Source: Candidatus Omnitrophota bacterium
GTDB lineage: Bacteria > Omnitrophota > Gorgyraeia > B26-G9
Length of the DNA stretch: 64,000 nucleotides
Assembly: GCA_043826565.1 (NCBI GenBank)
Contig: JBDRPX010000025.1
Span: 36,966-100,965, forward strand
Reading direction: 5' to 3'
Part shown: positions 26,128 through 59,566 of the stretch, one piece after another
Layout of the letters: each line of letters begins with the position of its first letter
Position numbering within the stretch: the stretch's first letter is position 1
Made by a program: the position numbers and the translations under genes
Notes under the pieces: model-generated
Seen by the model: only the letters and a program-made list of their open reading frames with translations
Databases searched by the model: none
What the model was told of the DNA's origin: nothing

Positions 26128-27618
26128 ATGAAAATTATTATTTCTTATCCGCCTTTAAATAAAGAAAAGGGTATTCCTTTACTGTCGCAAAACAGACAGT
26201 TTCAATATTTTAAGGACCCTACTTATATCTATCCGGTAGTTCCGGCGCAGGCAGCTTCACTTTTAAAAAGAGAAGGCTTTGATGTTATCTGGAACGATTG
26301 TATTGCCCAGGAATGGACTTATCCGCGGTTTATCCAATTTATTAAAGACGAAAAGCCGGATATTATTGCATTGGAGACAAAAACTCCTGTTATCCAGGAG
26401 CACTGGAAAATCATCAACAGCCTTAAAGAACTGGCAACTGGTAACTGGCAACTGGTAACTGTTCTATTTGGCGACCATGTAACGGCAATGCCGGAAGAAT
26501 CTATGCAGAATTCAAAAGTTGATTTTGTGCTTACCGGCGGCGATTACGACTTTCTCCTGTTAAATTTGTGTAATATTTTAAAAGAATTAAAACTAAACGC
26601 TATCCGCTATCCGCTATCCGCTAACTTAGAGCCTGGCATTTGGTATCGTAACGGAGAACAGATAAAAAACACCGGAACTTTTAAACTGAATCATGATTTA
26701 AATTCACTTCCTTTTATTGATCGAGATCTGACCAATTGGAAACTATACGCCTATAAAAACGGCAATTACCGCCGTACTCCGGGAACCTATATTATGAGCG
26801 GCCGGGATTGCTGGTGGGGGAAATGTACCTTTTGCAGTTGGCCGACACTTTATCCTGAGTTCCGGCAGAGAAAGGTATCCAATGTATTGGATGAAATTGA
26901 AATACTGGTAAAGCATTATGGAGTTAAGGAGATTATGGATGATTCCGGATCATTTCCGATTGGAGACTGGCTTAATGAGTTTTGCCGGGGAATGATCAGC
27001 CGGGGATTAAATAAAAAAGTAACGCTTGATTGTAATATGCGTTTTGGCGCGCTTTCTCTTGATGAATATAAGCTGATGAGAAAAGCCGGTTTTAGATTCC
27101 TGCTTTTTGGTATTGAATCAGCTAATCAGAAGACTTTAGATAAGATAAAAAAGAATCTTAAAGTAGAGACAATTACCGAATCATGCCATAATGCGCGTAA
27201 GGCGGGATTATATCCGCATATTACAATTATGTTCGGATATCCCTGGGAGACATATGAAGAGGCCCAAAACACTCTTGAACTGGGTAAATCATTGCTTAAA
27301 AAAGACTATGCCTATACCATGCAGTCTACGGTAGTTGTGCCTTATCCGGGTACGCCTTTATATGATGAGTGTAAGGCAAAAAATTTACTCTACACTACTG
27401 ATTGGACGGATTATGATATGAAAAAACCGGTTATGAAAATCGGATTTTCCCGGGAAAAGCTAATGGAGCTCGTGCAGAGCCTGTACTCGGTGAGTTTTTC
27501 TCCGGAGTTTATTATGCGTAAGATTTTCAGTATCCGGGAATTTGATGATATTAAATATTTTTCCCGGGCGTTTAAAAAAGTATGGGGACATATTTTTGAC
27601 TTTTCAAAAAAAGAGTGA
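26128..27618 (+). CDS. Cobalamin-binding radical SAM-like enzyme with atypical Cx4Cx2C cysteine spacing
   Basis: The N-terminal B12-binding-like domain is followed by SGRDCWWGKCTFCSWP (C-x4-C-x2-C rather than CxxxCxxC). The overall length and order are like the other three B12-rSAM paralogs. The gene carries two in-frame heptamer repeat arrays. Confidence 0.65.
   Translation: MKIIISYPPLNKEKGIPLLSQNRQFQYFKDPTYIYPVVPAQAASLLKREGFDVIWNDCIAQEWTYPRFIQFIKDEKPDIIALETKTPVIQEHWKIINSLKELATGNWQLVTVLFGDHVTAMPEESMQNSKVDFVLTGGDYDFLLLNLCNILKELKLNAIRYPLSANLEPGIWYRNGEQIKNTGTFKLNHDLNSLPFIDRDLTNWKLYAYKNGNYRRTPGTYIMSGRDCWWGKCTFCSWPTLYPEFRQRKVSNVLDEIEILVKHYGVKEIMDDSGSFPIGDWLNEFCRGMISRGLNKKVTLDCNMRFGALSLDEYKLMRKAGFRFLLFGIESANQKTLDKIKKNLKVETITESCHNARKAGLYPHITIMFGYPWETYEEAQNTLELGKSLLKKDYAYTMQSTVVVPYPGTPLYDECKAKNLLYTTDWTDYDMKKPVMKIGFSREKLMELVQSLYSVSFSPEFIMRKIFSIREFDDIKYFSRAFKKVWGHIFDFSKKE
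26431..26461. repeat. Heptanucleotide tandem repeat (CTGGCAA/CTGGTAA) x4.4 inside the rSAM CDS (encodes LATGNWQLVT)
   Basis: Direct reading gives ctggcaa ctggtaa ctggcaa ctggtaa ctg. Confidence 0.8.
26598..26625. repeat. Heptanucleotide tandem repeat (CGCTATC) x4 inside the same CDS (encodes IRYPLSANL)
   Basis: Direct reading gives cgctatc cgctatc cgctatc cgctaac. Confidence 0.8.
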
Positions 27619-27633
27619 GTTAATTTTAGAATA

Positions 27634-28338
27634 ATGAAATTAGAAGAATATTCAAAAAAATATATCCATTATTATTCAGATGAGGTGCCGGAGCTTATAG
27701 AGGATACTTTTAAGCAGCGCAAGATAAAAAGATTTGCTGATTTAGGTTCCGGGGATGGATCGATTTTATTTGCTCTGTTTAAAAAGGGATTACTTGATAA
27801 TGTTGAAAATATTACTGCTGTTGATATATCAGAAGACAGAATAAATAATGTGAAAAATATTAGTGATAGAATTTTCTGTATTGTTGCTGATGTCGGCAAT
27901 ATCCCAATGATTGATAATGAAAGTTTGGATTTTGCTGTATCTAATCAAGTTATTGAACATATGCCGGAGGAAGATAGCCTGATTAAAGAGGCTTTTCGCA
28001 CTCTATCTAAAGATGGAATATTATATATCTCGACTGTTTTTAAAAAGTGGTATGGTTGGTATTTCTACCGTTGTAACGGTAAGTGGACATTAGACCCTAC
28101 CCATCTAAAAGAGTATACAGATGAGACTCAACTTTTAGATAAAATTAGAAAATATGATTTTGAATTGCTGGTAAATAGAAAAAGCATGTATTGGTTTCCT
28201 GTCTCAGATTTTATTTTTAAACGAATAGGTATTAATCGTAATGCATATAATAATAATTTTTTAAGATTGCTTAGATATGTTAAAATACCAATTATCGGAT
28301 ACTATAATTGGGAGATTGTGCTGAGGAAGAATGGTTGA
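27634..28338 (+). CDS. Class I SAM-dependent methyltransferase
   Basis: Motif I FADLGSGDGS. An acidic residue lies ~20 aa later, and the VIEHMPEED region is motif II-like. Confidence 0.7.
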   Translation: MKLEEYSKKYIHYYSDEVPELIEDTFKQRKIKRFADLGSGDGSILFALFKKGLLDNVENITAVDISEDRINNVKNISDRIFCIVADVGNIPMIDNESLDFAVSNQVIEHMPEEDSLIKEAFRTLSKDGILYISTVFKKWYGWYFYRCNGKWTLDPTHLKEYTDETQLLDKIRKYDFELLVNRKSMYWFPVSDFIFKRIGINRNAYNNNFLRLLRYVKIPIIGYYNWEIVLRKNG

Positions 28339-29359
28339 GATGAAAGATTGTGAAATGCTCTCGGGAGAAAAAGTTAGTGTCTGTATCCCGGTTTATAATG
28401 GGGAGGATACAATTTTAGAAACACTAAGCAGCATTCTTAATCAAACATTCCCTGATTTTGAATTGCTAATTGTGGACAATTGTTCTACTGATGGGACAAT
28501 TGAAAAAGTAAAAACAATCAAAGATGCTCGAATAAAAATAATCAGAAATCAAAAAAATTTAGGATGTGGCGGTAATTTAAATGTTTGCAAAGAAAAAGCA
28601 GTCGGGGATATTGTTTATTTTATTTGTGCTGATGATATAGCGGATATTAATGCGGTTAAGAGAATGTATGAAGCGTTCCGGAAATCTGATGATGTCGGGA
28701 TTGTAACAAGGACATATTATTGGTTCACAGAATCAGTTGATCAGGCCGTGCGGATAAAAAAGCAGTTTAGTTCTGATATTACTGTATCAATTAAGGATGA
28801 CTTTGAAGCGATTAAGGATGTTGTCGCCTTATCAGATCAAATTTCGGGCATAGCTTTTCGCAAGAAATTTATGGAAAATTTTTCTTTTTCAAATCAAGCA
28901 TTTATTGAAATGGCATCAATGGTCGCACAGGTTATTAAAGTGAGCAATGCCGTTATCTTAAAAGATAATACAATTGCTGTAAGAATAGATAAAAACGGAT
29001 CTATGAATCCGGCTGTTTATATTAAGTCCCCCATGCTTGTTTGGGATGATTTGATAATGAGATCATTTAGTGAGCAAGGATTTATTTTTTTAAGAAGATA
29101 TCTGGTTGATAATTTTATAGCAAATAATTATATTGGTCTTGTCCAAATTAGAAGTTTTGGCGGGATGAAATATGCTTTAAGAGAAATATATTATTTAATT
29201 AAACTCCGGTGGAAGAATATTTTTAATTTGAGTTTCTGGTTTTTTTCTTTAGGAGTGATTATCGTGCCCAGTGCATTATTGCAAAAATTAGTGGTTTATT
29301 TTAAGAATAGAGTTAATAGTAAATTTTTAAAAAACATTAAAGTCAAATTGGGAGTATAA
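28331..29359 (+). CDS. Family 2 glycosyltransferase
   Basis: VSVCIPVYNGEDTI...LIVDNCSTDGT...ICADDI is a GT2 layout. An alternative ATG at 28340 has better RBS spacing. Confidence 0.7.
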   Translation: MVEMKDCEMLSGEKVSVCIPVYNGEDTILETLSSILNQTFPDFELLIVDNCSTDGTIEKVKTIKDARIKIIRNQKNLGCGGNLNVCKEKAVGDIVYFICADDIADINAVKRMYEAFRKSDDVGIVTRTYYWFTESVDQAVRIKKQFSSDITVSIKDDFEAIKDVVALSDQISGIAFRKKFMENFSFSNQAFIEMASMVAQVIKVSNAVILKDNTIAVRIDKNGSMNPAVYIKSPMLVWDDLIMRSFSEQGFIFLRRYLVDNFIANNYIGLVQIRSFGGMKYALREIYYLIKLRWKNIFNLSFWFFSLGVIIVPSALLQKLVVYFKNRVNSKFLKNIKVKLGV

Positions 29360-29361: not shown

Positions 29362-30135
29362 ATGAAAGTAGTAATTCTGTGTGGAGGGATGGGGACGCGT
29401 TTAAGCGAAGCGACAAGTATAATTCCAAAGCCGATGATTGAAATCGGCGGCAAGCCGATACTATGGCATATTATGAAAATTTTTTCTCATTATGGGTTTC
29501 ATGAATTTGTTATTTGTTTAGGGTATCGCGGATATATGATTAAAGAGTATTTCTCACATTATCTTATGCATATGAGTGATGTGACTATTGATATGGTAGA
29601 TAATAAGATGGATATTCATAGCAGTGCTTCTGAACCATGGAAAGTTACCTTGGTTGAGACAGGTATTAATACGATGACCGGAGGAAGGATTAAGAAAATC
29701 CAGAAATATGTCGGGAAGGAACCATTTATGTTGACGTATGGAGATGGAGTAGCGGATATCGACATTAATAAATTGATCAGGACACATAAGAGGAATAAGA
29801 AATTGGCAACATTAACCGGTGTTTTGACTGCCGGAAGATTTGGGGTTTTGGATGTTCAAAAAGATTCAGTTAAGTCGTTCCTGGAAAAACCTAAAGGGGA
29901 AGGTAATCGCATTAATGCCGGATTTTTTGTGTTGGAGCCGGAAATATTTAAATATATTAATAAAGGTGATGCGACAATTTGGGAGAGAGACCCTTTGTCT
30001 AAATTGGCTGAGGATGGTCAACTGGCTGTCCATAAACACAATGGTTTTTGGAAGTGTATGGATACGTTGCGTGATAAATTAGAGTTAGAGAAGATGCTGG
30101 AGAGCGGGCAAGCCTCTTGGATAATATGGGAGTAG
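29362..30135 (+). CDS. rfbF: Glucose-1-phosphate cytidylyltransferase (CDP-glucose pyrophosphorylase)
   Basis: MKVVILCGGMGTRLSEATSIIPKPMIEIGGKPILWHIMKIFSHYGFHEFVICLGYRGYMIKEYF is a near-textbook RfbF/DdhA N-terminus. Confidence 0.85.
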   Translation: MKVVILCGGMGTRLSEATSIIPKPMIEIGGKPILWHIMKIFSHYGFHEFVICLGYRGYMIKEYFSHYLMHMSDVTIDMVDNKMDIHSSASEPWKVTLVETGINTMTGGRIKKIQKYVGKEPFMLTYGDGVADIDINKLIRTHKRNKKLATLTGVLTAGRFGVLDVQKDSVKSFLEKPKGEGNRINAGFFVLEPEIFKYINKGDATIWERDPLSKLAEDGQLAVHKHNGFWKCMDTLRDKLELEKMLESGQASWIIWE

Positions 30136-30137
30136 CT

Positions 30138-31109
30138 ATGAATAAAAAATTCTGGAAAAATAAAAGCGTATTGATAACCGGGCATGAAGGGTTTTTGGGG
30201 GCTTGGCTGACAAAGACATTGATTGATTGTGGTGCAAATATTACGGGGCTGGATATCGTAAAAAACAGATCTTTTTCCGTATTAAACGGGTATGGGTTAA
30301 GAGAGCGCATTCATGGAGTAAAAGGAGATGTGGCAAACTATAAATTTGTTCAACGGGTGATTAAGAAATATAAGCCGCAGATAATTTTCCATTTAGCAGC
30401 CGAAGCAATAGTTTCAAGGTCAAAAAAAGATCCGGTGCAGACGTTTAAATCCAATATTGAAGGTACCTGGAATATCTTAGAAGTTGCCAGGAATACCAAG
30501 CAAATAAAAGCTATTGTCATGGCTTCCAGCGATAAGGCTTATGGAAGTCATGGGATTTTACCATATACAGAAGAAGCGGCTTTAAAAGGAGCGCATCCTT
30601 ATGATGTATCTAAAAGTTGCGCGGATTTGATCGGGAGTACATATGCGCATACTTATGGGGTTCCAGTAGCAACAACCCGTTGCGGAAATATCTATGGCCC
30701 CGGGGACGCGAATTTTTCCCGGATAGTGCCGGATACGATCCGTTGTGTGCTTAAAGGTAAGCGGTTGATTATTCGCAGCGACGGTAAATTTACCCGGGAT
30801 TATGTCTATGTAGATGATATCGCCAATGGATATATTATGTTAGCAGAGCAATTGCAAAAGAAAAAATTGTACGGTCAGGCATTTAATTTTAGTGATGAAA
30901 ATCCGATTACGGTCTTAAAATTAGTAGATAAGATTTATAAGATCGCAGGAAAAAATCCAAATTATAAAATTCTGAGCAAAGCAAAATATGAGATTAAGCA
31001 CCAATATCTTGATTCAAGTAAAGCAAGAAAAGTCCTGGGCTGGAAAGCAAATCATAGATTGGAAGAGGGCCTGGAACAGGCAATTGAATGGTATCAAGCT
31101 ATGAATTAG
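30138..31109 (+). CDS. rfbG: CDP-glucose 4,6-dehydratase
   Basis: FWKNKSVLITGHEGFLGAWL matches the RfbG/DdhB N-terminal signature FW.GK.V.VTGHTGFKGSWL. The start is taken at the ATG at 30138 with a GGGAG RBS; the track ORF begins at 30117. Confidence 0.8.
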   Translation: MNKKFWKNKSVLITGHEGFLGAWLTKTLIDCGANITGLDIVKNRSFSVLNGYGLRERIHGVKGDVANYKFVQRVIKKYKPQIIFHLAAEAIVSRSKKDPVQTFKSNIEGTWNILEVARNTKQIKAIVMASSDKAYGSHGILPYTEEAALKGAHPYDVSKSCADLIGSTYAHTYGVPVATTRCGNIYGPGDANFSRIVPDTIRCVLKGKRLIIRSDGKFTRDYVYVDDIANGYIMLAEQLQKKKLYGQAFNFSDENPITVLKLVDKIYKIAGKNPNYKILSKAKYEIKHQYLDSSKARKVLGWKANHRLEEGLEQAIEWYQAMN

Positions 31110-31122
31110 AGAGATAATATCT

Positions 31123-32109
31123 ATGGGTAATGATAATATGAAAAGTAAAAGAATTCTGATTACCGGGGCTACGGGTTTTGTGGGTTCGAATATAACGCGT
31201 TATTTTTTCGATAATAAATCTGAAGTAGGCGTGTTGTATCCGGAAGGGGACAATACCTGGAGGATTAACGATATTCTAGATGAAGTTTCGGTATTCGCCG
31301 CTGATTTACGTGATAAGGAGCAGTTACATAAAGTTATTTCTGAGTTTAAGCCGCAAATTATTATTCATGCGGCAATTTACGGTGGTTTTGTATATCAAAA
31401 AGATACGGATCGGATAATGAAGACCAATTTTCAAGGCACTGTAAATCTGTTGGATGCCTGCAGTCAGATAGATTATGAATTGTTTATCAATACCGGATCT
31501 TCATCAGAGTACGGGACCAAATCTCTACCGATGAAAGAGGATGATTTACTGGAACCGGTGACGGATTATGCGATTTCCAAGTCAGCAGCAACCTTATATG
31601 CTCAAGCGCTTAATCGTCGTGAAAATAAACCGATAGTAACACTTAGATTGTTTTCACCATTTGGGTATTATGATGAAAGTACCCGGTTAATGCCTTCGGT
31701 TATTCTTTCCTGCCTGCAGGGAGATGACCCTAAGGTATCTGCGCCTAAATATGTCCGTGATTTTGTATTTATCGAAGATGTAATAAGCGCATATGTCAAA
31801 GCTATAAAAAACAAGGATAAGATTAAAGGCGAAATATTTAATGTGGGTTCCGGGAAAGAACATTCTATTGGTGAAGTTGTTGACAAGATAATTGTTATTA
31901 GTAAAAGCGGAGTTAATGCTCAATGGGGGCAGACTCCGAATTCCCGGTTTGAGCCTGAAGTTTGGCAGGCAGATATTTCTAAAGCCCACAGACTCTTAGG
32001 ATGGGAGCCGAAATATAGCTTAGAACAGGGGATAGAAAAAACTATTGATTGGCTTAAATCAAATATGCACTTATATGATAAAGCAGTAATTGAGGATAAA
32101 ATTAAATAA
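31123..32109 (+). CDS. NAD(P)-dependent sugar epimerase/reductase (candidate CDP-4-keto-sugar reductase, Prt/YerF-like)
   Basis: ILITGATGFVGSNI is a Rossmann motif. The YxxxK dyad is in YAISK. It lies between rfbG and the ThDP enzyme. Confidence 0.55.
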   Translation: MGNDNMKSKRILITGATGFVGSNITRYFFDNKSEVGVLYPEGDNTWRINDILDEVSVFAADLRDKEQLHKVISEFKPQIIIHAAIYGGFVYQKDTDRIMKTNFQGTVNLLDACSQIDYELFINTGSSSEYGTKSLPMKEDDLLEPVTDYAISKSAATLYAQALNRRENKPIVTLRLFSPFGYYDESTRLMPSVILSCLQGDDPKVSAPKYVRDFVFIEDVISAYVKAIKNKDKIKGEIFNVGSGKEHSIGEVVDKIIVISKSGVNAQWGQTPNSRFEPEVWQADISKAHRLLGWEPKYSLEQGIEKTIDWLKSNMHLYDKAVIEDKIK

Positions 32110-33872
32110 TGAAGTTATCAGATTATGTTATAAATTTTTTAGTACAGCAAAAAGTTGAGTATATATTTGAAATATGTGGCGGAGCGATTACGCATTTGCT
32201 TGATTCTGTTTACAAAAGGACAGATATTAAAGCGATTCCCATGCATCATGAGCAGACAGCAGCATTTGCGGCAGAAGGTTATGCGCGCATCAATGGGAAT
32301 ATCGGTGTTGCGATGGCTACAAGCGGTCCTGGGGCAACTAATTTGATTACAGGCATTGGTAGTTGTTTTTTTGATTCAATCCCCTGTTTGTTTATTACCG
32401 GGCAGGTAAATACTTACGAATTTAAATTTAAAAAACCAATAAGACAACTAGGTTTTCAGGAAACAGATATCGTTACTATGGTAAAGCCGATTGTTAAAGA
32501 CAGTGTGCTTATCGAAGACCCCAATAAAATACGATATGAATTGGAACGGCTGATCCATATTGCTAAATCAGGCCGGCCAGGCCCGGTTTTACTGGATATC
32601 CCCATGAATGTTCAGCGTGCAGATATCAACCCAAGTAAATTAAAAGCGTTCAAAAAAAATGCTATTAATAAAGCTCCTCTACAGATAAAAAACAAGGTAT
32701 GGGGAAAGGTTGTAGAGTTAATCCATAATTCTTCCCGGCCTTTGGTTATCGTCGGTGGAGGTCTGAGGCTATCGCAGTCTTCAGATGAACTTTATGCTTT
32801 TATAAATAAGACTAAAATGCCTGTAGTGAGCACTTTAATCGGCAAAGATGCTTTTGCTAATGATCATAAGCAGTTTGTCGGAATGATGGGAACATATGGT
32901 CTGCGACATGCTAATTTAGCTGTTGCGAATGCCGATTTAATAATTGTTCTCGGGGCAAGGTTAGATACAAGACAAACCGGTACTAGACCGGATACTTTTT
33001 CACGTGGGGCAAAGATAGTGCATGTGGATGTAGACGCTAATGAACTAAACAGTAAAGTCCGGGCAGACATTGCCATTTGTGCGGATATAAAATTATTCCT
33101 AAAGGGGATTAATAAAAGAATTAGTAAATATGATTCTAAGAGAATATCCCGGTGGCGTAAAATTATTCAGCAGTACAAGCAGAAATATTCTCAAAAAAAT
33201 AATTCCAAGAATGCAATAGATCCGAATTTATTTTTGGAAGACGCTTCAAAGTATATGTCAAAAGACAGCGTTATATGTGTGGATGTAGGACAGCATCAAA
33301 TGTGGGCGGCGCAATCTGTGCAATTGAAAAAACAGCAGAGATTCCTGACCCAGGGAGGAATGGGAGCAATGGGATCCGCGCTTTCGTTCGCAATCGGAGC
33401 TTGTTTTGCCAAGCCCCGAACAACGGCAGTGGTGGTGACCGGAGATGGTGGATTTCAATTAAATTTACAGGAATTGCAGACGGTTTATTATTATCAGTTG
33501 CCGATTAAAATAATTATGTTGAATAATTCATGTTATGGAATGGTGCGGCAATTTCAAGAACAATACTTCCGGTCGCGTTTTCAGTCAACAGTTGTTGGCT
33601 ATAATGCTCCAAATTTTCAAAAAGTAGTTTCTTCTTTTGGAATAAAATCGAATCGCTTAGTTTATGAGAGAGATATAATAAAAAAGTTTAAAGACTTGTT
33701 TAAAGATAATAAACCCGCATTTCTTGAAGTAAAAATCCCAAAAGATGTTAAAGTCCTTCCCAAATTATCGGTGAATAGGCCAATAGAGGATCAAGACCCC
33801 TTATTATCGCGTGAAGAGCTTCAGTCTAATATGCAGATTGAGGTGCTAAAGGAGTATGAAAGTGAATTCTGA
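32109..33872 (+). CDS. Thiamine-diphosphate-dependent enzyme of the acetolactate-synthase large-subunit family (YerE-like two-carbon branching enzyme candidate)
   Basis: It has the three-domain ALS/POX layout. The ThDP-binding motif is GDGGFQLNLQEL...NNSCYGMV (GDG...NN). It is embedded in a CDP-dideoxyhexose module. Confidence 0.7.
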   Translation: MKLSDYVINFLVQQKVEYIFEICGGAITHLLDSVYKRTDIKAIPMHHEQTAAFAAEGYARINGNIGVAMATSGPGATNLITGIGSCFFDSIPCLFITGQVNTYEFKFKKPIRQLGFQETDIVTMVKPIVKDSVLIEDPNKIRYELERLIHIAKSGRPGPVLLDIPMNVQRADINPSKLKAFKKNAINKAPLQIKNKVWGKVVELIHNSSRPLVIVGGGLRLSQSSDELYAFINKTKMPVVSTLIGKDAFANDHKQFVGMMGTYGLRHANLAVANADLIIVLGARLDTRQTGTRPDTFSRGAKIVHVDVDANELNSKVRADIAICADIKLFLKGINKRISKYDSKRISRWRKIIQQYKQKYSQKNNSKNAIDPNLFLEDASKYMSKDSVICVDVGQHQMWAAQSVQLKKQQRFLTQGGMGAMGSALSFAIGACFAKPRTTAVVVTGDGGFQLNLQELQTVYYYQLPIKIIMLNNSCYGMVRQFQEQYFRSRFQSTVVGYNAPNFQKVVSSFGIKSNRLVYERDIIKKFKDLFKDNKPAFLEVKIPKDVKVLPKLSVNRPIEDQDPLLSREELQSNMQIEVLKEYESEF

Positions 33873-35193
33873 CGAAAAATTAATAAGAAAAGAAATTCTT
33901 AGTAAAGTTAAAAAATTTTATGCGGCAGGAAAAAACAAAAAATTTATTCCGGGCAAGAGCAGGATCCCTTATGCCGGACGTATTTTTGATGAAAAAGAAT
34001 TAGTCAATCTGGTTGACTCATCTTTGGATTTTTGGCTGACTGCCGGAAGGTATGCCCGGAAACTAGAAAAGCAGTTGGCGGAATTTGTTGGGGTAAAGCA
34101 TGCTTTACTGGTTAACTCAGGTTCCTCGGCAAATCTATTGGCAATAAGTGCTTTAACATCACCTCTTCTGAAAGAGCGGCGATTAAAACCGGGTGATGAA
34201 GTAATTACAACGGCTTGCGGGTTTCCGACCACATTAAACCCTATTTTACAGAACCAGTTAAACCCGGTAATTCTCGATGTGGAGCTGGGTACGTATAATA
34301 TTGACACCACAAAGCTTAAAAAAGCAATTACCAAGAAGACAAAAGCAGTTTTTGTTGCGCATACTTTGGGTAATCCATTTAATTTAGAAGCAGTATTAAA
34401 GATAGCTAGGAAGCATAAATTGTTTGTTATTGAGGACAATTGTGACGCGCTTGGTTCGAAATATAAAGACCGTTTTACCGGAGCTTATGGTGATATTGCA
34501 ACTTTGAGTTTTTATCCGGCCCATCATATGACTATGGGGGAAGGCGGTGCCGTATTAACTAGCGATCCTGTTTTAAGAAGAGCATTGCTTTCTTTGCGTG
34601 ACTGGGGCCGGGATTGCTGGTGTGATCCGGGCAGAGATAATACTTGCCGTAAGCGGTTTAAACAGCAGTTTGGTAAATTGCCTTATGGATATGATCATAA
34701 ATATGTATATTCGCATATTGGGTATAACCTGAAAGTTACTGATATGCAGGCAGCGATCGGCGTGGCTCAGTTAAAAAAACTTAAAGGTTTTATTAAAAAG
34801 CGCAAAGAGAACTTTGCTTTTCTGCATAAGAGCCTAAAAAAGTTCGAAAAATACCTGTTATTGCCCCAGGCAACCAAAAATTCTGATCCTAGCTGGTTTG
34901 GATTTCCCCTGATGGTAAAGACACCGTCAGCATTTACTCGTGATGAAATTGTTAATTATTTGGAGAATAGAGGGATCGCCACGAGGATGTTATTTGGAGG
35001 AAATTTAATTAAACAGCCGGCATATAAAGGAATAAAGATGAAGGTTGTGGGGACACTTAAAAACACAGATTTAGTTATGAATGATTTATTCTGGATTGGG
35101 GTGTACCCGGGAATTAATCGATTAAAATTGAAGTATGTAATTAAGGAAATAGAGGCATTCATACTAAAGATTCAGATGCCGCAATCGGGATGA
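33856..35193 (+). CDS. rfbH: CDP-6-deoxy-D-xylo-4-hexulose 3-dehydrase (E1; RfbH/DdhC, DegT/PMP-dependent family)
   Basis: FIPGKSRIPYAGRIFDEKELVNLVDSSLDFWLTAGRYARKLEKQLAEFVGVKHALLVNSGSSANLLAIS closely parallels the RfbH N-terminal region. The conserved downstream block DNCDALGSKY is present, with the position homologous to the pyridoxal-binding Lys occupied by His in the E1-type enzymes. Confidence 0.8.
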   Translation: MKVNSDEKLIRKEILSKVKKFYAAGKNKKFIPGKSRIPYAGRIFDEKELVNLVDSSLDFWLTAGRYARKLEKQLAEFVGVKHALLVNSGSSANLLAISALTSPLLKERRLKPGDEVITTACGFPTTLNPILQNQLNPVILDVELGTYNIDTTKLKKAITKKTKAVFVAHTLGNPFNLEAVLKIARKHKLFVIEDNCDALGSKYKDRFTGAYGDIATLSFYPAHHMTMGEGGAVLTSDPVLRRALLSLRDWGRDCWCDPGRDNTCRKRFKQQFGKLPYGYDHKYVYSHIGYNLKVTDMQAAIGVAQLKKLKGFIKKRKENFAFLHKSLKKFEKYLLLPQATKNSDPSWFGFPLMVKTPSAFTRDEIVNYLENRGIATRMLFGGNLIKQPAYKGIKMKVVGTLKNTDLVMNDLFWIGVYPGINRLKLKYVIKEIEAFILKIQMPQSG

Positions 35194-35200: not shown

Positions 35201-36418
35201 ATGGTGCAAGAGTGTTTTTTTATTGCAAATAATAATATTGGAGATTCCGGTTTAAGCGGCGGGTGCAGAATTTTTATTGAACTGGCTCGATATTGGAAAG
35301 AATCGATTGATCTAAAGATAATTGCCACAGAAGAAGCCATCACAGTTTGTAAAAAGTATGGGCTGGGAGATATTAAGTTCTATAAATCGTCCGGCAAACT
35401 AGGATATGATAATGTTTTTACTTTAAGGGCTGTTTTTGCAAATTTTTTCAAGAAATTAGCAAAGGGAATATTATTTGTATTAAAAAATAAATCCTTATTT
35501 AAAAATAATCCCTGGGTGTATTCAGTCTCGGATTTCTATCCTGATCTTATCCCGGCTTTCTTAATAAAATTAATAAATCCGAAATCAAGATGGATTGCCG
35601 GATATTATTTATTTGCACCTGCTCCCTGGGATAAAGATAGCCCCTACAAAGGTAAACATGCTTTTCGGGGCTTTCTTTATTGGTTCTCGCAAAGGCTCTC
35701 TTATGGCCTTGCAAAAAAATATGCGGATATTGTTTTTGTGACTTCCGAGCCGGATAAAAAGAAATTTCTGACTAAAAAAAGAGGAGAGTCTGAAATTTTT
35801 GTTATCCGGGGAGGTGTTAATATCGAAGCATCAACAGAATATTTAAATAGTAAGGAGATTATCCCTTTAGATAAGAGGAAGTATGCATGCTGCTTTGTGG
35901 GAAGATTTCATCAGCAAAAAGGGGTTTTAGTTTTAATAGAGATATGGAAAAAAGTTATTGAGAGATTACCCCGTGCTAAACTTGCGATGATTGGTAATGG
36001 CCCGCTTCAGGTGAGTGTGCAAAATAAGATTAATGAATATAGTTTAAATGACAATGTGGAATTGTTTGGTTTTATGGATGGGCTCGAGAAATTTAATGTT
36101 TTTAAACAGAGTAAAATTGTCGTACATCCGGCAACTTATGATAGTGGGGGCATGGCGGCAGCAGAGGCTATGGCGTGGGGCTTGCCTGGAATAAGCTTTG
36201 ATCTGGAGGCTTTAAAGACTTATTACCCTCAGGGTATGATAAAAGTTCCTAAGGATGATTATAACCGGTTTGCTGAGGAAATAGTTAAACTGCTGGCGGA
36301 CTCTGATTATTATAAAACAATTTCTTTGTTAGCTCTTGAGTTGATAGTTAAACAGTGGGATTGGAAAAAACGGGCACAGCTAATTTTGGAAGGGTTGTTG
36401 GTTAATAATAATGGATAA
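35201..36418 (+). CDS. GT-B fold glycosyltransferase (family 4/1)
   Basis: The C-terminal domain has EX7E-like HPATYDSGGMAAAEAMAWGLPGIS. Confidence 0.65.
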   Translation: MVQECFFIANNNIGDSGLSGGCRIFIELARYWKESIDLKIIATEEAITVCKKYGLGDIKFYKSSGKLGYDNVFTLRAVFANFFKKLAKGILFVLKNKSLFKNNPWVYSVSDFYPDLIPAFLIKLINPKSRWIAGYYLFAPAPWDKDSPYKGKHAFRGFLYWFSQRLSYGLAKKYADIVFVTSEPDKKKFLTKKRGESEIFVIRGGVNIEASTEYLNSKEIIPLDKRKYACCFVGRFHQQKGVLVLIEIWKKVIERLPRAKLAMIGNGPLQVSVQNKINEYSLNDNVELFGFMDGLEKFNVFKQSKIVVHPATYDSGGMAAAEAMAWGLPGISFDLEALKTYYPQGMIKVPKDDYNRFAEEIVKLLADSDYYKTISLLALELIVKQWDWKKRAQLILEGLLVNNNG

Positions 36419-37274
36419 CATTAAGGTTTCACTTATAATTACTACAAAAAATGCTCAACAGTATATTGCCGGATGTTTAGATTCAATAAAATATCAGAAT
36501 TACAATCAATCTGAAATTGAAGTTATAGTTGTTGATAATAATTCTACTGATAAAACTAAAGAAATAGCTTCTAAGTATACGGATAAAATCTACAACTGCG
36601 GTCCGGAGCGTTCAGCGCAAAGGAATTTTGGGATTAGTAAGGCATTGGGAAAATATGTTCTTTATCTTGATGTCGATATGTTGCTTTCTGAAAATGTCCT
36701 TTCAGAGTGTGTAGAGAAAATAGAGGCTGATGATCTGATTGCTTTATATGTCCCGGAGGTAATCGTCGGTAAAGGGTTTTGGATACAGGTGAGAAACTTT
36801 GAACGCAGTTTTTATAATGCAACGGTTGTTGACTGTGTTCGTTTTATAAAAAAAGATGCATTTATGAAAATAAAAGGATTTGATGAAAATTTAACCGGCC
36901 CGGAGGATTGGGATTTAGACAGAAGAATAAATCAAACTGGAAAAACATCAATAATAAATGTTCCGATTTATCACAATGAAGGTGTTTTTAACCTTAAAAA
37001 CTATTTACTTAAAAAAAGCTACTATTCAAAAACATTTGAAAAATATGTGCAAAAGTGGGGAAAAAATGACGCAATAATAAAAAAACAGCTTGGGTTTTCT
37101 TATCGGTTTTTTGGTGTGTTTATAGAAAATGGAAAATGGAAAAAACTTATCAGTTGTCCTGTTTTTACATGGGGTATGTATTTTTTGAGATTTTTAGTTG
37201 GGCTTACATTCCTTGTGTCTAGAATCGGCCGAAATCCTTTAAAAAATAAAGGTAATATTTATGGACAGAAATAG
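36411..37274 (+). CDS. Family 2 glycosyltransferase
   Basis: VSLIITTKNAQQYI...VVDNNSTDKT...YLDVDM (DxD). Confidence 0.7.
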   Translation: MDNIKVSLIITTKNAQQYIAGCLDSIKYQNYNQSEIEVIVVDNNSTDKTKEIASKYTDKIYNCGPERSAQRNFGISKALGKYVLYLDVDMLLSENVLSECVEKIEADDLIALYVPEVIVGKGFWIQVRNFERSFYNATVVDCVRFIKKDAFMKIKGFDENLTGPEDWDLDRRINQTGKTSIINVPIYHNEGVFNLKNYLLKKSYYSKTFEKYVQKWGKNDAIIKKQLGFSYRFFGVFIENGKWKKLISCPVFTWGMYFLRFLVGLTFLVSRIGRNPLKNKGNIYGQK

Positions 37275-38781
37275 TGCTAATAATAAAATCTTGTTTGTTT
37301 CTCCGCCTTCTAGAGCATTTAACCACTATCGTCCGCCGTTGGCATTAATGTATCTTTCTGGTTATTTAAAAAAACAGGGAGTTGCTGCTAAAATTATTGA
37401 TTGTATTATTCAAGATCAGGTGAGAAGTAAGTCTTTTGAAAAAAATAAAGACAGATATCTGACTGATGTGCGTGATAATATGCTAAAGCAGATTATTGAA
37501 GCTGAAACAGATATAGTGTGTATTACCTGTTATACCCCGGAATTGCCGGAAGTAGAGGTCCTTGCCGCCCAAATAAAGAAGAAAAATAGTAATATAAAAA
37601 TTATTGCCGGAGGTGTTCATCCTACTTTTTATCCTGAACATCTTATTTATGAGGGTTCTAATTTCGATTTTGTTGTTGTTGGCGAAGGAGAAGTTACTCT
37701 TTTTGAATTAATAAAAGCTATTCGCAGTGATAGTAATGATTACGGTCTTATTGAGGGGATAGCTTATTTAGATGTTGAAAAAAATAAACTAGTTAAAAAT
37801 AAAGGACGTATTCTGGCCGAAGATTTAGATGAAATATCATTTCCTGATTATGCGGATTTAGATATGGATTTTTATACAACAGCTTCGCCGTATGCAATAA
37901 GAGGGGTGTTTTCTAAAAGCTTTTATGTGTTATCTTCCCGGGGGTGCCCATCTTCATGCACTTTTTGTGTTTCAAAAAAAATTAGAGAGTTTTATGCCGG
38001 AGAGAAATTTGTCAGGCTTCGTTCGCCAGAGTCCCTTTTTCGGGAAGTTAAGGAGTTAAGAGAGAAATATAAAATTGACTCTTTTTATTTTATTGATGAT
38101 CTTTTTACTTTAAAGAAAGACCATGTCGGAGAATTTTGCCGATTAATGATTGATGATAAGTCTCCATTGATTTGGGGATGTTCCTCAAAAGTTAATACTG
38201 TTGACTATGAGATGCTGAAAAATATGGCTGATGCCGGTTGTGTGCAGATTGATTTTGGCGTTGAAAAAGGAACAGATTCTGAGCTGAAACAGCTGAAAAA
38301 GGGGATAACCATTGCGCAGATAAAAAAAACATTTGATATCTGCCGGAAACTGGGTATCCGCACTTTTGCGAATATGCTGGTTAATACTCCGGCAGAGCAA
38401 GAAGCTGATTTGAAATCGTCTTTAACATTTGTCCAACGTTTACGTCCAACCATAGTTTCTTTTAATGTTTTTGCCCCTTATCCGGGGTGTGAAATTTTTG
38501 ACCGGTGCTGTGAAAATATCACTAGAGATGATTATCCTGATTTAATGAATACTGTTTTGCTGATTAAGGATAAGCCGGAGAAATACAGATTTGCCGAGCA
38601 TTCTGTGGATTTGCTGGATTGGGTTATTAAAGCTAATAAAAAATATAATCTGATTTTTCCTAATCTCAGGATATATTTTAGTTGGAAATATATTAAAAAC
38701 ATTCTTAGATCAAGATGCAAAATGGAATATGTAAAAGGATCGGTCAGCTTGGTAAAAGAATTTATTAATCAGAAATTTTAG
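37261..38781 (+). CDS. Cobalamin-binding radical SAM enzyme
   Basis: The B12-binding domain reads ILFVSPPSRAFNHYRPPLALMYLSGYLKKQG. The cluster motif is SRGCPSSCTFCVS. Confidence 0.8.
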   Translation: MDRNSANNKILFVSPPSRAFNHYRPPLALMYLSGYLKKQGVAAKIIDCIIQDQVRSKSFEKNKDRYLTDVRDNMLKQIIEAETDIVCITCYTPELPEVEVLAAQIKKKNSNIKIIAGGVHPTFYPEHLIYEGSNFDFVVVGEGEVTLFELIKAIRSDSNDYGLIEGIAYLDVEKNKLVKNKGRILAEDLDEISFPDYADLDMDFYTTASPYAIRGVFSKSFYVLSSRGCPSSCTFCVSKKIREFYAGEKFVRLRSPESLFREVKELREKYKIDSFYFIDDLFTLKKDHVGEFCRLMIDDKSPLIWGCSSKVNTVDYEMLKNMADAGCVQIDFGVEKGTDSELKQLKKGITIAQIKKTFDICRKLGIRTFANMLVNTPAEQEADLKSSLTFVQRLRPTIVSFNVFAPYPGCEIFDRCCENITRDDYPDLMNTVLLIKDKPEKYRFAEHSVDLLDWVIKANKKYNLIFPNLRIYFSWKYIKNILRSRCKMEYVKGSVSLVKEFINQKF

Positions 38782-41444: not shown

Positions 41445-41467
41445 GTAAATTCTAGGGATTGTTAAAG

Positions 41468-43959: not shown

Positions 43960-44994
43960 ATGAAAATTTTAGTTACCGGAGGCGCGGGCATGGTTGGTTC
44001 CCATTGTGCGGAATATTATGCTAAAAAAGGAGCAAAGGTAGTTGCCTTAGATAACCTGATGCGTTCGGAGCTGTTTAAATCCAAGAAAAAGAGTGTGGAG
44101 TATAATTGGCGTTTTCTACAGAAAATGAAAAATGTTACCTGTTTAAAAGGCGACGTGCGTAATGAAAAAGATGTTATGGAAGCTATTGGAAAAGGCGTGG
44201 ATGCGGTTATCCATACTGCCGGACAGCCGGGAGTGCCCTCATCAGTGCGTATGCCGAAAGAAGATTTCAGTATTAATGCGTTTGGAACACTTAATGTGCT
44301 GGAATGTTTAAGAAGTAAAAGCAAAAATGCCGCGTTTGTGTATTGTTCAACCAATAAAGTATATGGAGAAAATATTGATAAAATCCCGCTAAAAGAGTTG
44401 AAAACAAGGTATGCCTTTAAAGGTATGAATGGGGTTGATGAAAAAATGCTTACGGATTTAACCGGGCATACGCCGTATGGGGTAAGCAAGTTAGTGGGTG
44501 ATTTATATACCCAGGAGTATGCGCATATCTACGGCATGAAAACTGCGGTATTCAGAATGAGCTGTATTTATGGAGACCGTCAGTTTGGATTTGAAGACCA
44601 GGGCTGGGTAGCGTGGTTTATTATTGCTTGTTTGACCGGCAGGAAAATAACTGTATTTGGCGACGGTAAACAAGTGCGGGACCTTTTGTATGCCGGAGAT
44701 CTGGTTAAGAGTTATGATCGTTTTATCCAAGGGAAAATTAAGCACACCATTGTTAATGTCGGAGGAGGTAAAGATAATACGATTTCTTTGCTTGAGTTTC
44801 TGGATAAGCTTAAAGGGTTGACCGGGAAAAAGCCAAAAGTGCAATTTAGCAATTGGCGGCCTTCTGATCAGAAAGTCTATGTGTCGGATATCGGTAAGGC
44901 AAAAAAAATATTATCATGGGAACCGCAAGTATCCGTGGAGCAGGGTTTGTTAAAATTGACCGAATGGATTAAGGATAACAGAGTTTTGTTTTAA
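43960..44994 (+). CDS. CDP-paratose 2-epimerase-like (Tyv/RfbE family) NAD-dependent epimerase
   Basis: MKILVTGGAGMVGSH...ALDNL...STNKVYGE...TPYGVSKLVGDLYTQEYAHIYGMKTAVFRMSCIYGDRQFGFEDQGWVAWF...GDGKQVRDLLYAGDLV parallels Salmonella Tyv blocks, as recalled rather than searched. Confidence 0.6.
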   Translation: MKILVTGGAGMVGSHCAEYYAKKGAKVVALDNLMRSELFKSKKKSVEYNWRFLQKMKNVTCLKGDVRNEKDVMEAIGKGVDAVIHTAGQPGVPSSVRMPKEDFSINAFGTLNVLECLRSKSKNAAFVYCSTNKVYGENIDKIPLKELKTRYAFKGMNGVDEKMLTDLTGHTPYGVSKLVGDLYTQEYAHIYGMKTAVFRMSCIYGDRQFGFEDQGWVAWFIIACLTGRKITVFGDGKQVRDLLYAGDLVKSYDRFIQGKIKHTIVNVGGGKDNTISLLEFLDKLKGLTGKKPKVQFSNWRPSDQKVYVSDIGKAKKILSWEPQVSVEQGLLKLTEWIKDNRVLF

Positions 44995-45117
44995 TGTGAA
45001 GAATATTATCAATAACTTATTACATTAAGACATCCTATAAAGAGAAAAATAGGAGGATGTCTTGATTATATAGATTAAAAAGAAGATTGCAGTGATTTAA
45101 AAGCTGTCAAGTCAGAA

Positions 45118-46078: not shown

Positions 46079-46114
46079 AAAACAGGAAGTCGATATTATT
46101 TGAGAGGAAATGTT

Positions 46115-57331: not shown

Positions 57332-57332
57332 T

Positions 57333-59563: not shown

Positions 59564-59566
59564 TTT

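What the first reader, a model, noticed from the sequence alone, without database searches (positions are those of the whole stretch)
29362..35193. CDP-3,6-dideoxyhexose module with a YerE-like thiamine-diphosphate enzyme: candidate branched-chain dideoxy sugar (yersiniose-like)
rfbF (Glc-1-P cytidylyltransferase), rfbG (CDP-Glc 4,6-dehydratase) and rfbH/ddhC (E1 dehydrase) are unmistakable. Between them sits a 587-aa ThDP enzyme of the acetolactate-synthase large-subunit family and an SDR reductase. In Yersinia, the ALS-like flavoenzyme YerE adds a two-carbon branch to CDP-4-keto-3,6-dideoxyglucose and YerF reduces it, giving yersiniose. The Tyv-like 2-epimerase at 43960 adds a further tailoring option. 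No E3 (DdhD, Fe-S flavin reductase) is present in the window.
Basis: partly seen in the sequence, partly recalled or inferred. Interest (0 to 1): 0.6.

Follow-up and report, generated by a model that had tools for sequence, protein, structure and literature searches.

The report
YerE-like branched-sugar gene cassette, no E3
Five tightly packed genes in an uncultured Omnitrophota bacterium most likely build a CDP-linked 3,6-dideoxy sugar and add a short carbon branch to it with a thiamine enzyme related to Yersinia YerE; this is a known kind of pathway in a new host, in a version that lacks the usual E3 reductase.

Summary
Window 29362-35193 carries five co-directional, abutting or overlapping genes: glucose-1-phosphate cytidylyltransferase, a short CDP-glucose 4,6-dehydratase-like SDR, a second extended SDR, a 587-aa ThDP enzyme, and an E1-type 3-dehydrase (RfbH/DdhC).

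The ThDP enzyme is YerE-like, not IlvB.
- It scores higher against Yersinia YerE and PDB 5AHK than against E. coli IlvI/IlvB.
- It falls in a 100%-bootstrap clade with both YerE references.
- It has the clade's 6-residue insertion and all 20 signature positions.
- No ilvN/ilvH lies nearby.

E1 keeps His220 and the four [2Fe-2S] cysteines. No E3, YerF orthologue, aldolase or ferredoxin motif is in the window.

The same five-gene order recurs in six further distinct loci (Omnitrophota, a Methanobacterium MAG, a Scalindua-annotated protein's contig and others). None has E3 within 10 kb.

Most likely product: a CDP-4-C-acyl-3,6-dideoxyhexose, probably with a C2 branch from pyruvate. Electrons for E1 would come from a generic ferredoxin or flavodoxin system, as shown for SpnQ. 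The adjacent SDR would process the branch. Donor, stereochemistry and SDR role are inferred, not shown.

Verdict: a new member of the known YerE-like cluster type, with moderate interest.

The parts
29362..30135 (+). rfbF/ddhA: glucose-1-phosphate cytidylyltransferase, which makes CDP-glucose
   Evidence: TIGR02623 equivalog 392.7 bits against a cutoff of 300.25. 55% identical to Yersinia DdhA.
30117..31109 (+). Short CDP-glucose 4,6-dehydratase-like SDR (rfbG/ddhB analogue). The start is probably ATG 30138, giving 323 aa.
   Evidence: TIGR02622 246.8 bits, below the 278.45 cutoff. Best PDB hits are CDP-glucose 4,6-dehydratases 1RKX and 1WVG, and the SDK and YxxSK motifs are kept. Only 31% identical to Yersinia DdhB. 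Orthologues of 316-326 aa hold the same position in all cassette relatives.
31123..32109 (+). Extended SDR of 328 aa. Its stop overlaps the ThDP start by one base. Candidate reductase for the branch ketone (a functional analogue of YerF) or an epimerase.
   Evidence: PF01370 163.7 bits. No NCBIfam equivalog. GxxGxxG, 'SSSEYG' and 'YAISK' are intact. No BLAST hit to Yersinia YerE's partner YerF. The C-terminal half matches CDP-tyvelose 2-epimerase 9RL0 at 100 bits. It lies immediately upstream of the ThDP gene in the six further related loci.
32109..33872 (+). YerE-like ThDP (probably FAD-binding) carboligase of 587 aa
   Evidence: PF02776, PF00205 and PF02775 are all present. Below every NCBIfam AHAS cutoff; the best is TIGR00118 at 512.6 against 538.35. 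Best PDB hit is 5AHK at 399.5 bits, against 346 for plant AHAS. Sits in the YerE clade with 100% bootstrap. Carries the clade insertion and signature residues.
33856..35193 (+). rfbH/ddhC: E1-type PMP and [2Fe-2S] CDP-4-keto-6-deoxyglucose 3-dehydrase
   Evidence: NF011936 716.7 bits against a cutoff of 423. PDB 3BCX 532 bits. His220 and Cys193/251/253/261 are conserved.
28331..29359 (+). GT2 glycosyltransferase directly upstream; candidate transferase for the CDP-sugar
   Evidence: PF00535 105.1 bits. A GT2 occupies the same position in the 78%-identical Omnitrophota locus L001. Its role is inferred only.
35201..36418 (+). GT4 glycosyltransferase directly downstream; candidate transferase
   Evidence: PF00534 89.9 bits. 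It starts 7 nt after rfbH ends. Its role is inferred only.
43960..44994 (+). Tyv-like (CDP-tyvelose 2-epimerase-like) SDR; a possible accessory gene, not part of the conserved cassette
   Evidence: Best PDB hits are 9RL0 (247.4 bits) and 1ORR (224.4 bits), with the next hit at 135.1. It does not co-occur with the cassette in relatives.

Best explanation
The five genes form one operon-like cassette. It converts glucose-1-phosphate into a CDP-activated, C4-branched 3,6-dideoxyhexose for the surrounding polysaccharide locus of about 47 kb.

Proposed steps:
1. RfbF makes CDP-glucose. This is supported by a hit above the equivalog cutoff.
2. The short RfbG-type SDR makes CDP-4-keto-6-deoxyglucose. 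This is inferred from the best structural homologues and the conserved catalytic residues.
3. The E1-type RfbH removes the 3-hydroxyl using PMP and its [2Fe-2S] cluster. The motifs are present. Because no E3 is encoded nearby, the two electrons are assumed to come from a general ferredoxin or flavodoxin system, as was demonstrated for SpnQ. This step is inferred.
4. The YerE-like ThDP enzyme decarboxylates an alpha-keto acid and adds the acyl-anion equivalent to the C4 ketone, creating a tertiary alcohol with an acyl branch. The donor is most likely pyruvate, because no aldolase or other keto-acid-forming gene is present. The step is inferred from clade membership.
5. The adjacent CDP-sugar-type SDR then reduces the branch ketone, or epimerises the product. 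This would give a yersiniose-like 4-C-(1-hydroxyethyl)-3,6-dideoxyhexose or a stereoisomer of it. This step is inferred.
6. A neighbouring glycosyltransferase installs the sugar.
For: - Gene identities.
- YerE-clade membership: higher scores to Yersinia YerE and 5AHK than to IlvI/IlvB; 100% bootstrap; shared 6-residue insertion, C-terminal 'PKLxxxxPxxxQxP' tail and 20 of 20 signature positions.
- 5AHK is 68% identical to the ThDP gene that sits in a canonical Yersinia ddhD-ddhA-ddhB-ddhC-yerE-yerF locus, so it is a valid YerE reference.
- E1 features are intact.
- The order rfbF, short rfbG, SDR, ThDP, rfbH is the same in six further distinct loci from Omnitrophota, Methanobacterium and other lineages.
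- No aldolase is present in the window or in those loci. The literature links aldolase genes to longer branches such as erwiniose and caryophyllose (PMC9306805).
- Phe482 is shared with the Yersinia YerE orthologue and 5AHK (PpYerE), relatives of the pyruvate-using Y. pseudotuberculosis YerE. This position varies widely elsewhere in the clade.
- SpnQ is a precedent for E3-independent reduction (PMC8987622).
Against: - There is no biochemical or glycan-structure data for any member of this subclade.
- The SDR is not an orthologue of YerF. It is a typical C4-acting type of extended SDR, with an acidic residue after beta-2 that hints at NAD rather than NADPH. Its role as a branch reductase is therefore uncertain.
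- E3 is absent from the window and from all relatives outside Yersinia, so the electron source is unknown.
- The ThDP enzyme is only 38-39% identical to characterised YerE enzymes. It scores closer to the AHAS model than Yersinia YerE does (512.6 against 406.8 bits for TIGR00118).
- Donor specificity in this family cannot yet be read from sequence (PMC12247030).
- rfbG falls below its equivalog cutoff.
Confidence: 0.62

Rival explanations
1. The branching chemistry is the same, but the donor is a longer or functionalised 2-oxo acid, as for ErwE, MMAR_2332 or MyGE. The product would then be an erwiniose- or caryophyllose-type sugar with a C4-C7 branch rather than a C2 branch.
For: The window family is its own 100%-supported subclade, separate from the canonical YerE enzymes (Yersinia, 5AHK), and it has an extra C-terminal tail of about 20 residues. 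YerE-like enzymes differ widely in donor range, and this cannot be predicted from sequence (PMC9306805, PMC12247030).
Against: All characterised long-branch clusters carry an aldolase next to the ThDP gene (PMC9306805). None is present in the 47-kb locus or in the six further related loci. Phe482 matches the Yersinia and P. protegens YerE references.
Confidence: 0.15
2. The cassette is a self-sufficient five-gene route to an unbranched 3,6-dideoxyhexose. The ThDP/FAD protein would oxidise pyruvate and pass electrons to the [2Fe-2S] cluster of E1, replacing E3. The SDR would be the C4 ketoreductase, analogous to RfbJ, RfbS or Prt.
For: - The gene count matches the canonical rfbF, rfbG, rfbH, rfbI, rfbJ pathway.
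- E3 is missing from all seven cassette loci, counting the window.
- The SDR resembles C4-acting nucleotide-sugar SDRs and is unrelated to YerF.
- From my own knowledge, not tested here: AHAS-family enzymes bind FAD, and slow ThDP-to-FAD electron transfer is known as a side reaction.
Against: - The protein keeps every YerE-clade signature, which argues for conserved carboligase function.
- The sister Paenibacillus locus L073 has a YerF orthologue (38% identity, 214 bits) yet also lacks E3. Absence of E3 therefore does not track loss of YerE/YerF chemistry.
- No precedent exists for a ThDP enzyme acting as the reductase partner of E1.
- The SDR does not list any paratose or abequose synthase model among its NCBIfam hits.
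Confidence: 0.06
3. The ThDP enzyme is a true biosynthetic acetolactate synthase large subunit (IlvB/G/I) that happens to lie inside a sugar locus.
For: The top NCBIfam hit is TIGR00118 at 512.6 bits, only 26 bits below its cutoff. Several public sources label homologues 'acetolactate synthase'.
Against: - It is below every AHAS cutoff.
- It is closer to YerE than to IlvI/IlvB.
- It lies in the YerE clade with 100% bootstrap.
- It has the YerE insertion and lacks the AHAS Trp.
- There is no small subunit nearby, whereas most of the 71 AHAS loci in the scan have IlvH adjacent.
- It overlaps the SDR and rfbH genes in a conserved cassette.
Confidence: 0.02

Closest known systems
Yersinia/Pseudomonas yersiniose A cluster ddhD-ddhA-ddhB-ddhC-yerE-yerF (Chen, Guo and Liu 1998; Cunneen 2011; PMC4509608). 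The example fetched here is Yersinia vastinensis L014.
   Same: It has the CDP-glucose cytidylyltransferase (55% identity), an E1 with His220 and the C-X57-C-X1-C-X7-C motif (51% identity), and a ThDP enzyme of the same clade (39% identity, shared insertion and signature residues). All are encoded side by side in a polysaccharide locus.
   Different: - No E3/ddhD is present.
- The 4,6-dehydratase is a short, divergent type (31% identity, below the equivalog cutoff).
- The reductase is not a YerF orthologue and lies upstream of the ThDP gene, not downstream.
- The gene order differs.
- The ThDP enzyme has an extra C-terminal tail of about 20 residues.
- The host is an uncultured Omnitrophota bacterium.
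PpYerE from Pseudomonas protegens. I believe this is the structure deposited as PDB 5AHK under the name 'acetolactate synthase II large subunit' (Hampel et al. 2018, cited in PMC12247030).
   Same: It is the best solved-structure match (399.5 bits, residues 1-564). The S-pocket valine is conserved, corresponding to V479 of the 'GMV' motif.
   Different: Identity is only 38%. That 5AHK is PpYerE comes from my memory of the entry. It is supported here only indirectly, by 68% identity to the Yersinia yerE product.
Long-branch YerE-like systems: ErwE/ErwF/ErwI/ErwJ (erwiniose), MMAR_2331-2333 (caryophyllose) and MyGE (gastriose) (PMC9306805)
   Same: The logic is the same: a ThDP enzyme adds an acyl branch to CDP-4-keto-3,6-dideoxyglucose, and an NAD(P)H-dependent reduction follows.
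   Different: Those clusters include an aldolase that builds the long 2-oxo acid donor. No aldolase is present here.
SpnQ, the E1 homologue in spinosyn forosamine biosynthesis (Hong et al. 2006/2008, reviewed in PMC8987622)
   Same: It is a [2Fe-2S]/PMP 3-dehydrase that has no dedicated E3 in its cluster. It works with general ferredoxin or flavodoxin reductase pairs.
   Different: SpnQ acts on a dTDP-2,6-dideoxy sugar in an actinomycete antibiotic pathway. The window protein is a close E1/RfbH orthologue acting on a CDP-sugar.
Biosynthetic acetohydroxyacid synthase large subunit (IlvB/IlvG/IlvI)
   Same: It has the same three-domain ThDP fold, the catalytic Glu, and the GDG...NN ThDP motif; identity is 31-32%.
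   Different: The window protein lacks the AHAS Trp and the second Asp of 'RFDDR'. It has a 6-residue insertion. No regulatory subunit lies nearby. It is below all equivalog cutoffs.

Membership tests
YerE-like ThDP carboligases (AHAS-like subclass of the decarboxylase superfamily) | Three ThDP-enzyme domains (N-terminal, central, C-terminal) with the catalytic Glu and the GDG-NN motif | tested here: met
   PF02776 125.6, PF00205 140.2 and PF02775 144.9 bits. E48 and G445-D446-G447...N472-N473 are invariant in alignment A1.
YerE-like ThDP carboligases (AHAS-like subclass of the decarboxylase superfamily) | Groups with characterised YerE enzymes to the exclusion of AHAS | tested here: met
   NJ tree of 35 sequences and 558 columns: the YerE-like clade of 18 sequences, including Yersinia YerE and 5AHK, has 100% bootstrap over 200 replicates. 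BLASTP gives 387 and 389 bits to the YerE references and 313 and 298 bits to IlvI and IlvB.
YerE-like ThDP carboligases (AHAS-like subclass of the decarboxylase superfamily) | Clade-specific sequence signatures: a 6-residue insertion before GFQE, RxDxRQTG, and Phe in place of the AHAS Trp. I derived these signatures here; they are not from the literature. | tested here: met
   The insertion is in 18 of 18 YerE-like and 0 of 17 AHAS sequences. The window protein has 20 of 20 clade-specific positions. The insertion is also in 144 of 148 top 50%-identity cluster representatives.
YerE-like ThDP carboligases (AHAS-like subclass of the decarboxylase superfamily) | Encoded beside genes that make CDP-4-keto-3,6-dideoxyglucose (ddhA, ddhB, ddhC) | tested here: met
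   rfbF, the rfbG-like gene and rfbH flank it directly. The arrangement is conserved in six further related loci.
YerE-like ThDP carboligases (AHAS-like subclass of the decarboxylase superfamily) | Catalyses addition of an acyl-anion equivalent from a 2-oxo acid to a ketone acceptor (a CDP-4-ketosugar) | not testable with these tools
   This needs an enzyme assay. No member of this subclade has been characterised, as far as the papers held show (PMC12247030, PMC9306805).
Canonical yersiniose cluster (ddhDABC-yerEF) | A dedicated E3 reductase (DdhD/AscD; Fer2 plus flavin reductase domains) encoded in the cluster | tested here: not met
   No such Pfam architecture appears in 51 annotated ORFs. 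tblastn with Yersinia E3 gives a best E-value of 0.07. No ferredoxin Cys motif is present. The rest of the genome could not be searched.
Canonical yersiniose cluster (ddhDABC-yerEF) | A YerF orthologue next to yerE | tested here: not met
   Yersinia YerF has no significant match in the window; the best is E = 0.006, to the Tyv-like gene. The adjacent SDR belongs to the same Pfam family (PF01370) but gives no BLAST hit to YerF.
Biosynthetic acetolactate synthase large subunit (IlvB/G/I) | Reaches a curated NCBIfam AHAS equivalog cutoff | tested here: not met
   TIGR00118 scores 512.6 against a cutoff of 538.35. All other AHAS models are 240 or more bits below their cutoffs.
Biosynthetic acetolactate synthase large subunit (IlvB/G/I) | Adjacent regulatory small subunit (IlvN/IlvH), or an ilv context | tested here: not met
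   tblastn with IlvH and IlvN finds nothing in the window. Most of the 71 AHAS loci from the genome scan have IlvH adjacent.
E1 / RfbH / DdhC (CDP-4-keto-6-deoxyglucose 3-dehydrase) | Above the equivalog score; His in place of the aminotransferase Lys; the C-X57-C-X1-C-X7-C [2Fe-2S] motif | tested here: met
   NF011936 scores 716.7 against a cutoff of 423. H220, C193, C251, C253 and C261 are conserved in the window protein. Each is also conserved in every cassette homologue whose sequence covers that position; contig-truncated L004 lacks the region from residue 251 on. The features are described in PMC8987622.
CDP-glucose 4,6-dehydratase (RfbG/DdhB) | Equivalog score; Asp-Lys and Tyr-xxx-Lys catalytic residues | tested here: inconclusive
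   TIGR02622 scores 246.8, below the cutoff of 278.45. However, the best PDB hits are 1RKX and 1WVG, and the SDK and Y-D-V-S-K motifs align. It lies next to the cytidylyltransferase in every relative.
Glucose-1-phosphate cytidylyltransferase (RfbF/DdhA) | Equivalog score over the full length | tested here: met
   TIGR02623 scores 392.7 against a cutoff of 300.25, covering residues 1-256 of 257.
CDP-tyvelose 2-epimerase (gene at 43960-44994) | Closest to solved Tyv enzymes; functional link to a CDP-3,6-dideoxyhexose pathway | tested here: inconclusive
   9RL0 scores 247.4 and 1ORR 224.4 bits, with the next hit at 135.1. No NCBIfam equivalog is reached. The gene is 9 kb from the cassette and is not conserved with it.

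The most novel reading that the evidence does not exclude
In this E3-less version of the pathway, the FAD-type ThDP protein may not branch the sugar, or may not only branch it. It could replace E3 by oxidising pyruvate and feeding electrons to the [2Fe-2S] cluster of E1. The neighbouring SDR would then act as the C4 reductase. The five genes would be a self-contained, previously undescribed route to a 3,6-dideoxyhexose in anaerobic bacteria and a methanogen.
Probability: 0.05. Interest if true: 0.75.

Novelty: new member of a known kind. Interest (0 to 1): 0.4.

Why it matters
Acyl-branched 3,6-dideoxyhexoses such as yersiniose, erwiniose and caryophyllose are rare surface-glycan sugars. So far they are documented only in a few cultured Proteobacteria and mycobacteria.

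This cassette, and its many close relatives in metagenomes, suggests the chemistry is widespread. More than 120 clusters at 90% identity share at least 59% identity with it. They come from uncultured, mostly anaerobic lineages: Omnitrophota, a Scalindua-annotated protein's contig, Actinobacteria and a Methanobacterium MAG.

The subfamily works without a clustered E3 and with a different reductase. It therefore offers new ketone-accepting ThDP carboligases for biocatalysis. It is also a natural test case for how E1-type 3-deoxygenation is powered when E3 is absent. Because it remains a homology-based prediction of a known pathway type, the interest is moderate.

Tried and rejected
1. True IlvB: rejected on scores, tree, indels and context.
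2. E3 hidden in the window: Pfam annotation of 51 ORFs, tblastn with Yersinia E3 and a scan for ferredoxin Cys motifs all came back negative.
3. An aldolase or other 2-oxo-acid-forming gene that would indicate a long branch: none found in the window or in the related loci.
4. A ferredoxin domain fused to the 511-aa RfbH ORF of Paenibacillus L073: Pfam shows only the DegT domain, so the N-terminal extension is an ORF-calling artefact.
Only 5 of 80 loci were YerE-like, and the source MAG was not recovered.
6. Walking the rest of the 109,876-bp source contig: the look-up for P0001 returned only a 14.6-kb Logan contig, so the remaining ~46 kb could not be searched for ddhD.
7. The Biopython bootstrap timed out. 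I replaced it with my own NJ and Kimura-distance bootstrap.
8. Krug et al. 2024 (the in silico survey of more than 200 YerE-like clusters) and Lanza et al. 2024 (JanthE) are not held. I could not check whether this subfamily has already been listed.
9. No paper in the library names 5AHK as PpYerE. I validated it indirectly instead.
10. ErwE, MMAR_2332, MyGE and JanthE sequences were not obtainable, so no donor prediction by phylogeny was possible.

Full report
**Source and setting.** The ThDP protein of the window is 100% identical to a protein that NCBI names 'MAG: thiamine pyrophosphate-binding protein [Candidatus Omnitrophota bacterium]', on a 109,876-bp contig. The window has 33-43% G+C, and every sizeable gene is on the + strand. 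I annotated 51 ORFs with Pfam. Positions ~1-47,500 form one large polysaccharide locus. It contains a priming sugar transferase, Wzy, Wzx, many GT2/GT4 genes, UDP-glucose dehydrogenase, several SDRs, methyltransferases and four B12-binding radical SAM genes. Unrelated housekeeping genes follow.

**Check of the observation.**
- rfbF (29362-30135) passes the glucose-1-phosphate cytidylyltransferase equivalog: 392.7 bits against a cutoff of 300.25.
- The next gene (30117-31109) falls below the CDP-glucose 4,6-dehydratase cutoff: 246.8 bits against 278.45. Its best solved relatives are nevertheless the two CDP-glucose 4,6-dehydratases 1RKX and 1WVG. The Ser-Asp-Lys and Tyr-xxx-Lys motifs align.
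- The PDB alignment and the DNA suggest the true start of that gene is ATG 30138, two bases after the rfbF stop.
- 31123-32109 is an extended SDR with an intact Gly-rich loop, 'SSSEYG' and 'YAISK'.
- 32109-33872 has all three ThDP-enzyme domains.
- 33856-35193 is RfbH/E1: 716.7 bits against a cutoff of 423, and 532 bits to the Yersinia E1 structure 3BCX.
- Junctions are overlaps or gaps of at most 13 nt.

**YerE or IlvB?**
- The ThDP enzyme is below every NCBIfam AHAS cutoff.
- Its best solved relative is 5AHK (399.5 bits), ahead of plant AHAS (346 bits).
- To get an independent YerE reference I scanned one genome per species with an alignment of the family. The scan saturated, and most of its 80 loci were true AHAS.
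- It did return a Yersinia vastinensis locus with the textbook order: E3-like reductase, ddhA (467 bits), ddhB (516 bits), ddhC (745 bits), a ThDP gene, then a 310-aa SDR.
- That Yersinia ThDP protein is 68% identical to 5AHK. Both therefore serve as YerE references.
- The window protein gives 387 and 389 bits (39% and 38% identity) to these two. It gives 313 and 298 bits (31% and 32%) to E. coli IlvI and IlvB.
- Across the 87 loci compared, those whose ThDP gene scores higher to YerE than to Ilv also have rfbF or rfbH neighbours and no IlvH. The other 71 show the opposite pattern, most with IlvH adjacent.
- A neighbour-joining tree (35 sequences, 558 columns, 200 bootstraps) gives 100% support for a YerE-like clade containing the window protein, Yersinia YerE and 5AHK. 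It also gives 100% support for the window's own subclade and for its sister relation to Bacillota/Paenibacillus proteins.
- The clade is marked by a 6-residue insertion before 'GFQE', present in 18 of 18 members and absent from 17 of 17 AHAS. Other marks are 'RxDxRQTG' in place of 'RFDDR', Phe in place of the AHAS Trp, and a 'PKLxxxxPxxxQxP' C-terminal segment.
- The window protein has all 20 clade-specific positions.

**The rest of the pathway.**
- E1 retains His220 and Cys193/251/253/261, the C-X57-C-X1-C-X7-C [2Fe-2S] motif. The cassette homologues retain them too wherever their sequence covers these positions (features as reviewed in PMC8987622). This is a cluster-bearing E1, not a ColD-type enzyme, and it needs two electrons per turnover.
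- No E3 is in the window. The evidence is the Pfam annotation, tblastn with a best E-value of 0.07, and the absence of any ferredoxin Cys motif.
- There is no YerF orthologue. The neighbouring SDR gives no BLAST hit to Yersinia YerF, although both belong to PF01370.
- There is no aldolase. In the published erwiniose, caryophyllose and gastriose clusters, an aldolase marks long-branch donors (PMC9306805).

**Conservation.** I looked up the contigs of six homologues, which gave six further distinct loci (eight fetched in all). They come from two further Omnitrophota MAGs, a Methanobacterium MAG, the contig of a Scalindua-annotated protein and two others.
- All have the same order: cytidylyltransferase, short 4,6-dehydratase (316-326 aa), SDR, ThDP enzyme, RfbH. 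Three fetched loci (two distinct) have an extra metallo-beta-lactamase-fold gene.
- None has an E3-like gene within 10 kb.
- The sister Paenibacillus locus has a canonical long DdhB (60% identity) and a YerF orthologue (38%, 214 bits). It also lacks E3.
- Outside Yersinia and Pseudomonas (PMC4509608), an unclustered or absent E3 therefore looks like the rule in this sample. It does not argue against YerE chemistry.
- All 120 listed 90%-identity clusters (59-100% identical to the query) have the full signature.
- Among the top 150 representatives at 50% identity, 144 of the 148 that cover the region carry the insertion. The YerE-like clade is large and diverse. [quoted passage not shown]

**Mechanism proposed.**
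1. Glucose-1-phosphate is converted to CDP-glucose by RfbF.
2. The short RfbG converts this to CDP-4-keto-6-deoxyglucose.
3. E1 converts this to CDP-4-keto-3,6-dideoxyglucose. Electrons are assumed to come from a general ferredoxin or flavodoxin system, as shown for SpnQ (PMC8987622).
4. The ThDP enzyme adds an acyl group at C4. Pyruvate is the most probable donor, because no donor-building genes are present and Phe482 is shared with the Yersinia and P. protegens YerE references.
5. The SDR processes the product. Its C-terminal half resembles the CDP-sugar-binding part of CDP-tyvelose 2-epimerase.
6. A flanking glycosyltransferase transfers the sugar.

Steps 1-3 rest on strong homology. Step 4 rests on clade membership. 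Step 5, the donor, the stereochemistry and the electron source are inferences.

**Rival readings.**
- A longer donor cannot be excluded, because donor range is not predictable from sequence.
- A more radical reading is that the cassette is self-sufficient, with the FAD-type ThDP protein replacing E3 and the SDR acting as the C4 reductase. It fits the gene count and the missing E3. The complete retention of YerE signatures and the E3-less but YerF-bearing Paenibacillus locus argue against it.
- A true AHAS is effectively ruled out.

**The Tyv-like gene.** The gene at 43960-44994 is a real Tyv homologue. It sits beside rmlA-like and manC genes, 9 kb from the cassette, and is not conserved with it. 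Any link to this pathway is speculative.

**Verdict.** This is a new, uncharacterised member of the known YerE-like branched-sugar cluster type. It belongs to a widespread subfamily that lacks a clustered E3, uses a different SDR and has a divergent 4,6-dehydratase. I could not check whether the 2024 in silico survey already lists this subfamily, because that paper is not held. Interest is moderate.

Noticed in passing
window 3740-5206, 7810-9315, 26128-27618, 37261-38781: Four B12-binding (class B) radical SAM genes lie inside one polysaccharide locus, each next to glycosyltransferase or SAM-methyltransferase genes. None reaches an NCBIfam cutoff; the best are BchE at 176 against 481 and HpnJ at 147 against 578. 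They may C-methylate or otherwise modify the glycan. The 78%-related Omnitrophota locus L001 keeps radical SAM genes at syntenic positions.
   Followed up: partly
window 26128-27618: This radical SAM protein lacks the canonical CxxxCxxC motif and has 'CWWGKCTFC' (Cx4Cx2C) instead. The other three have CxxxCxxC.
   Followed up: partly
window 9312-11159: A 615-aa fusion of a GT4 glycosyltransferase with a C-terminal SAM methyltransferase domain.
   Followed up: no
window 806-3697, 5248-6696, 39844-40749, 41459-43945: Large ORFs inside the glycan locus with little or no Pfam match: 963, 482 and 301 aa with none. The 828-aa protein has only a C-terminal DUF3108.
   Followed up: no
L003 8279-9028, L004 2991-3740, L091 4892-5635: In some relatives (Methanobacterium and the contig of a Scalindua-annotated protein), a metallo-beta-lactamase-fold gene of about 248 aa is inserted between the short 4,6-dehydratase and the SDR of the cassette. 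It is absent from the window.
   Followed up: no
L003 (Methanobacterium sp. MAG GCA_016222945.1, contig JACRPY010000004.1): The complete five-gene cassette, with a 59%-identical ThDP enzyme, occurs in a methanogenic archaeon MAG on a 530-kb contig. This implies inter-domain transfer and possibly an acyl-branched sugar in an archaeal glycan.
   Followed up: partly
L002 21532-21746 (runs off the locus): A 799-aa nucleotide-sugar SDR interrupted by an intein (PF14890) lies in an Omnitrophica WOR_2 polysaccharide locus.
   Followed up: no
window 43960-47542: The Tyv-like SDR is followed by an RmlA-like nucleotidyltransferase (289 aa) and a ManC-type mannose-1-phosphate guanylyltransferase/isomerase. 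This may be a second, separate nucleotide-sugar module.
   Followed up: partly
P0124, P0133, P0145, P0216 (top representatives): Several proteins carrying the YerE-like insertion motif are 740-950 aa long, which suggests fusions of the ThDP enzyme with other domains.
   Followed up: no
window 55789-60634: A conserved housekeeping run, uppS-cdsA-dxr-rseP-ispG, lies downstream of the glycan locus. A GH57 branching enzyme is at 54083-55663.
   Followed up: no
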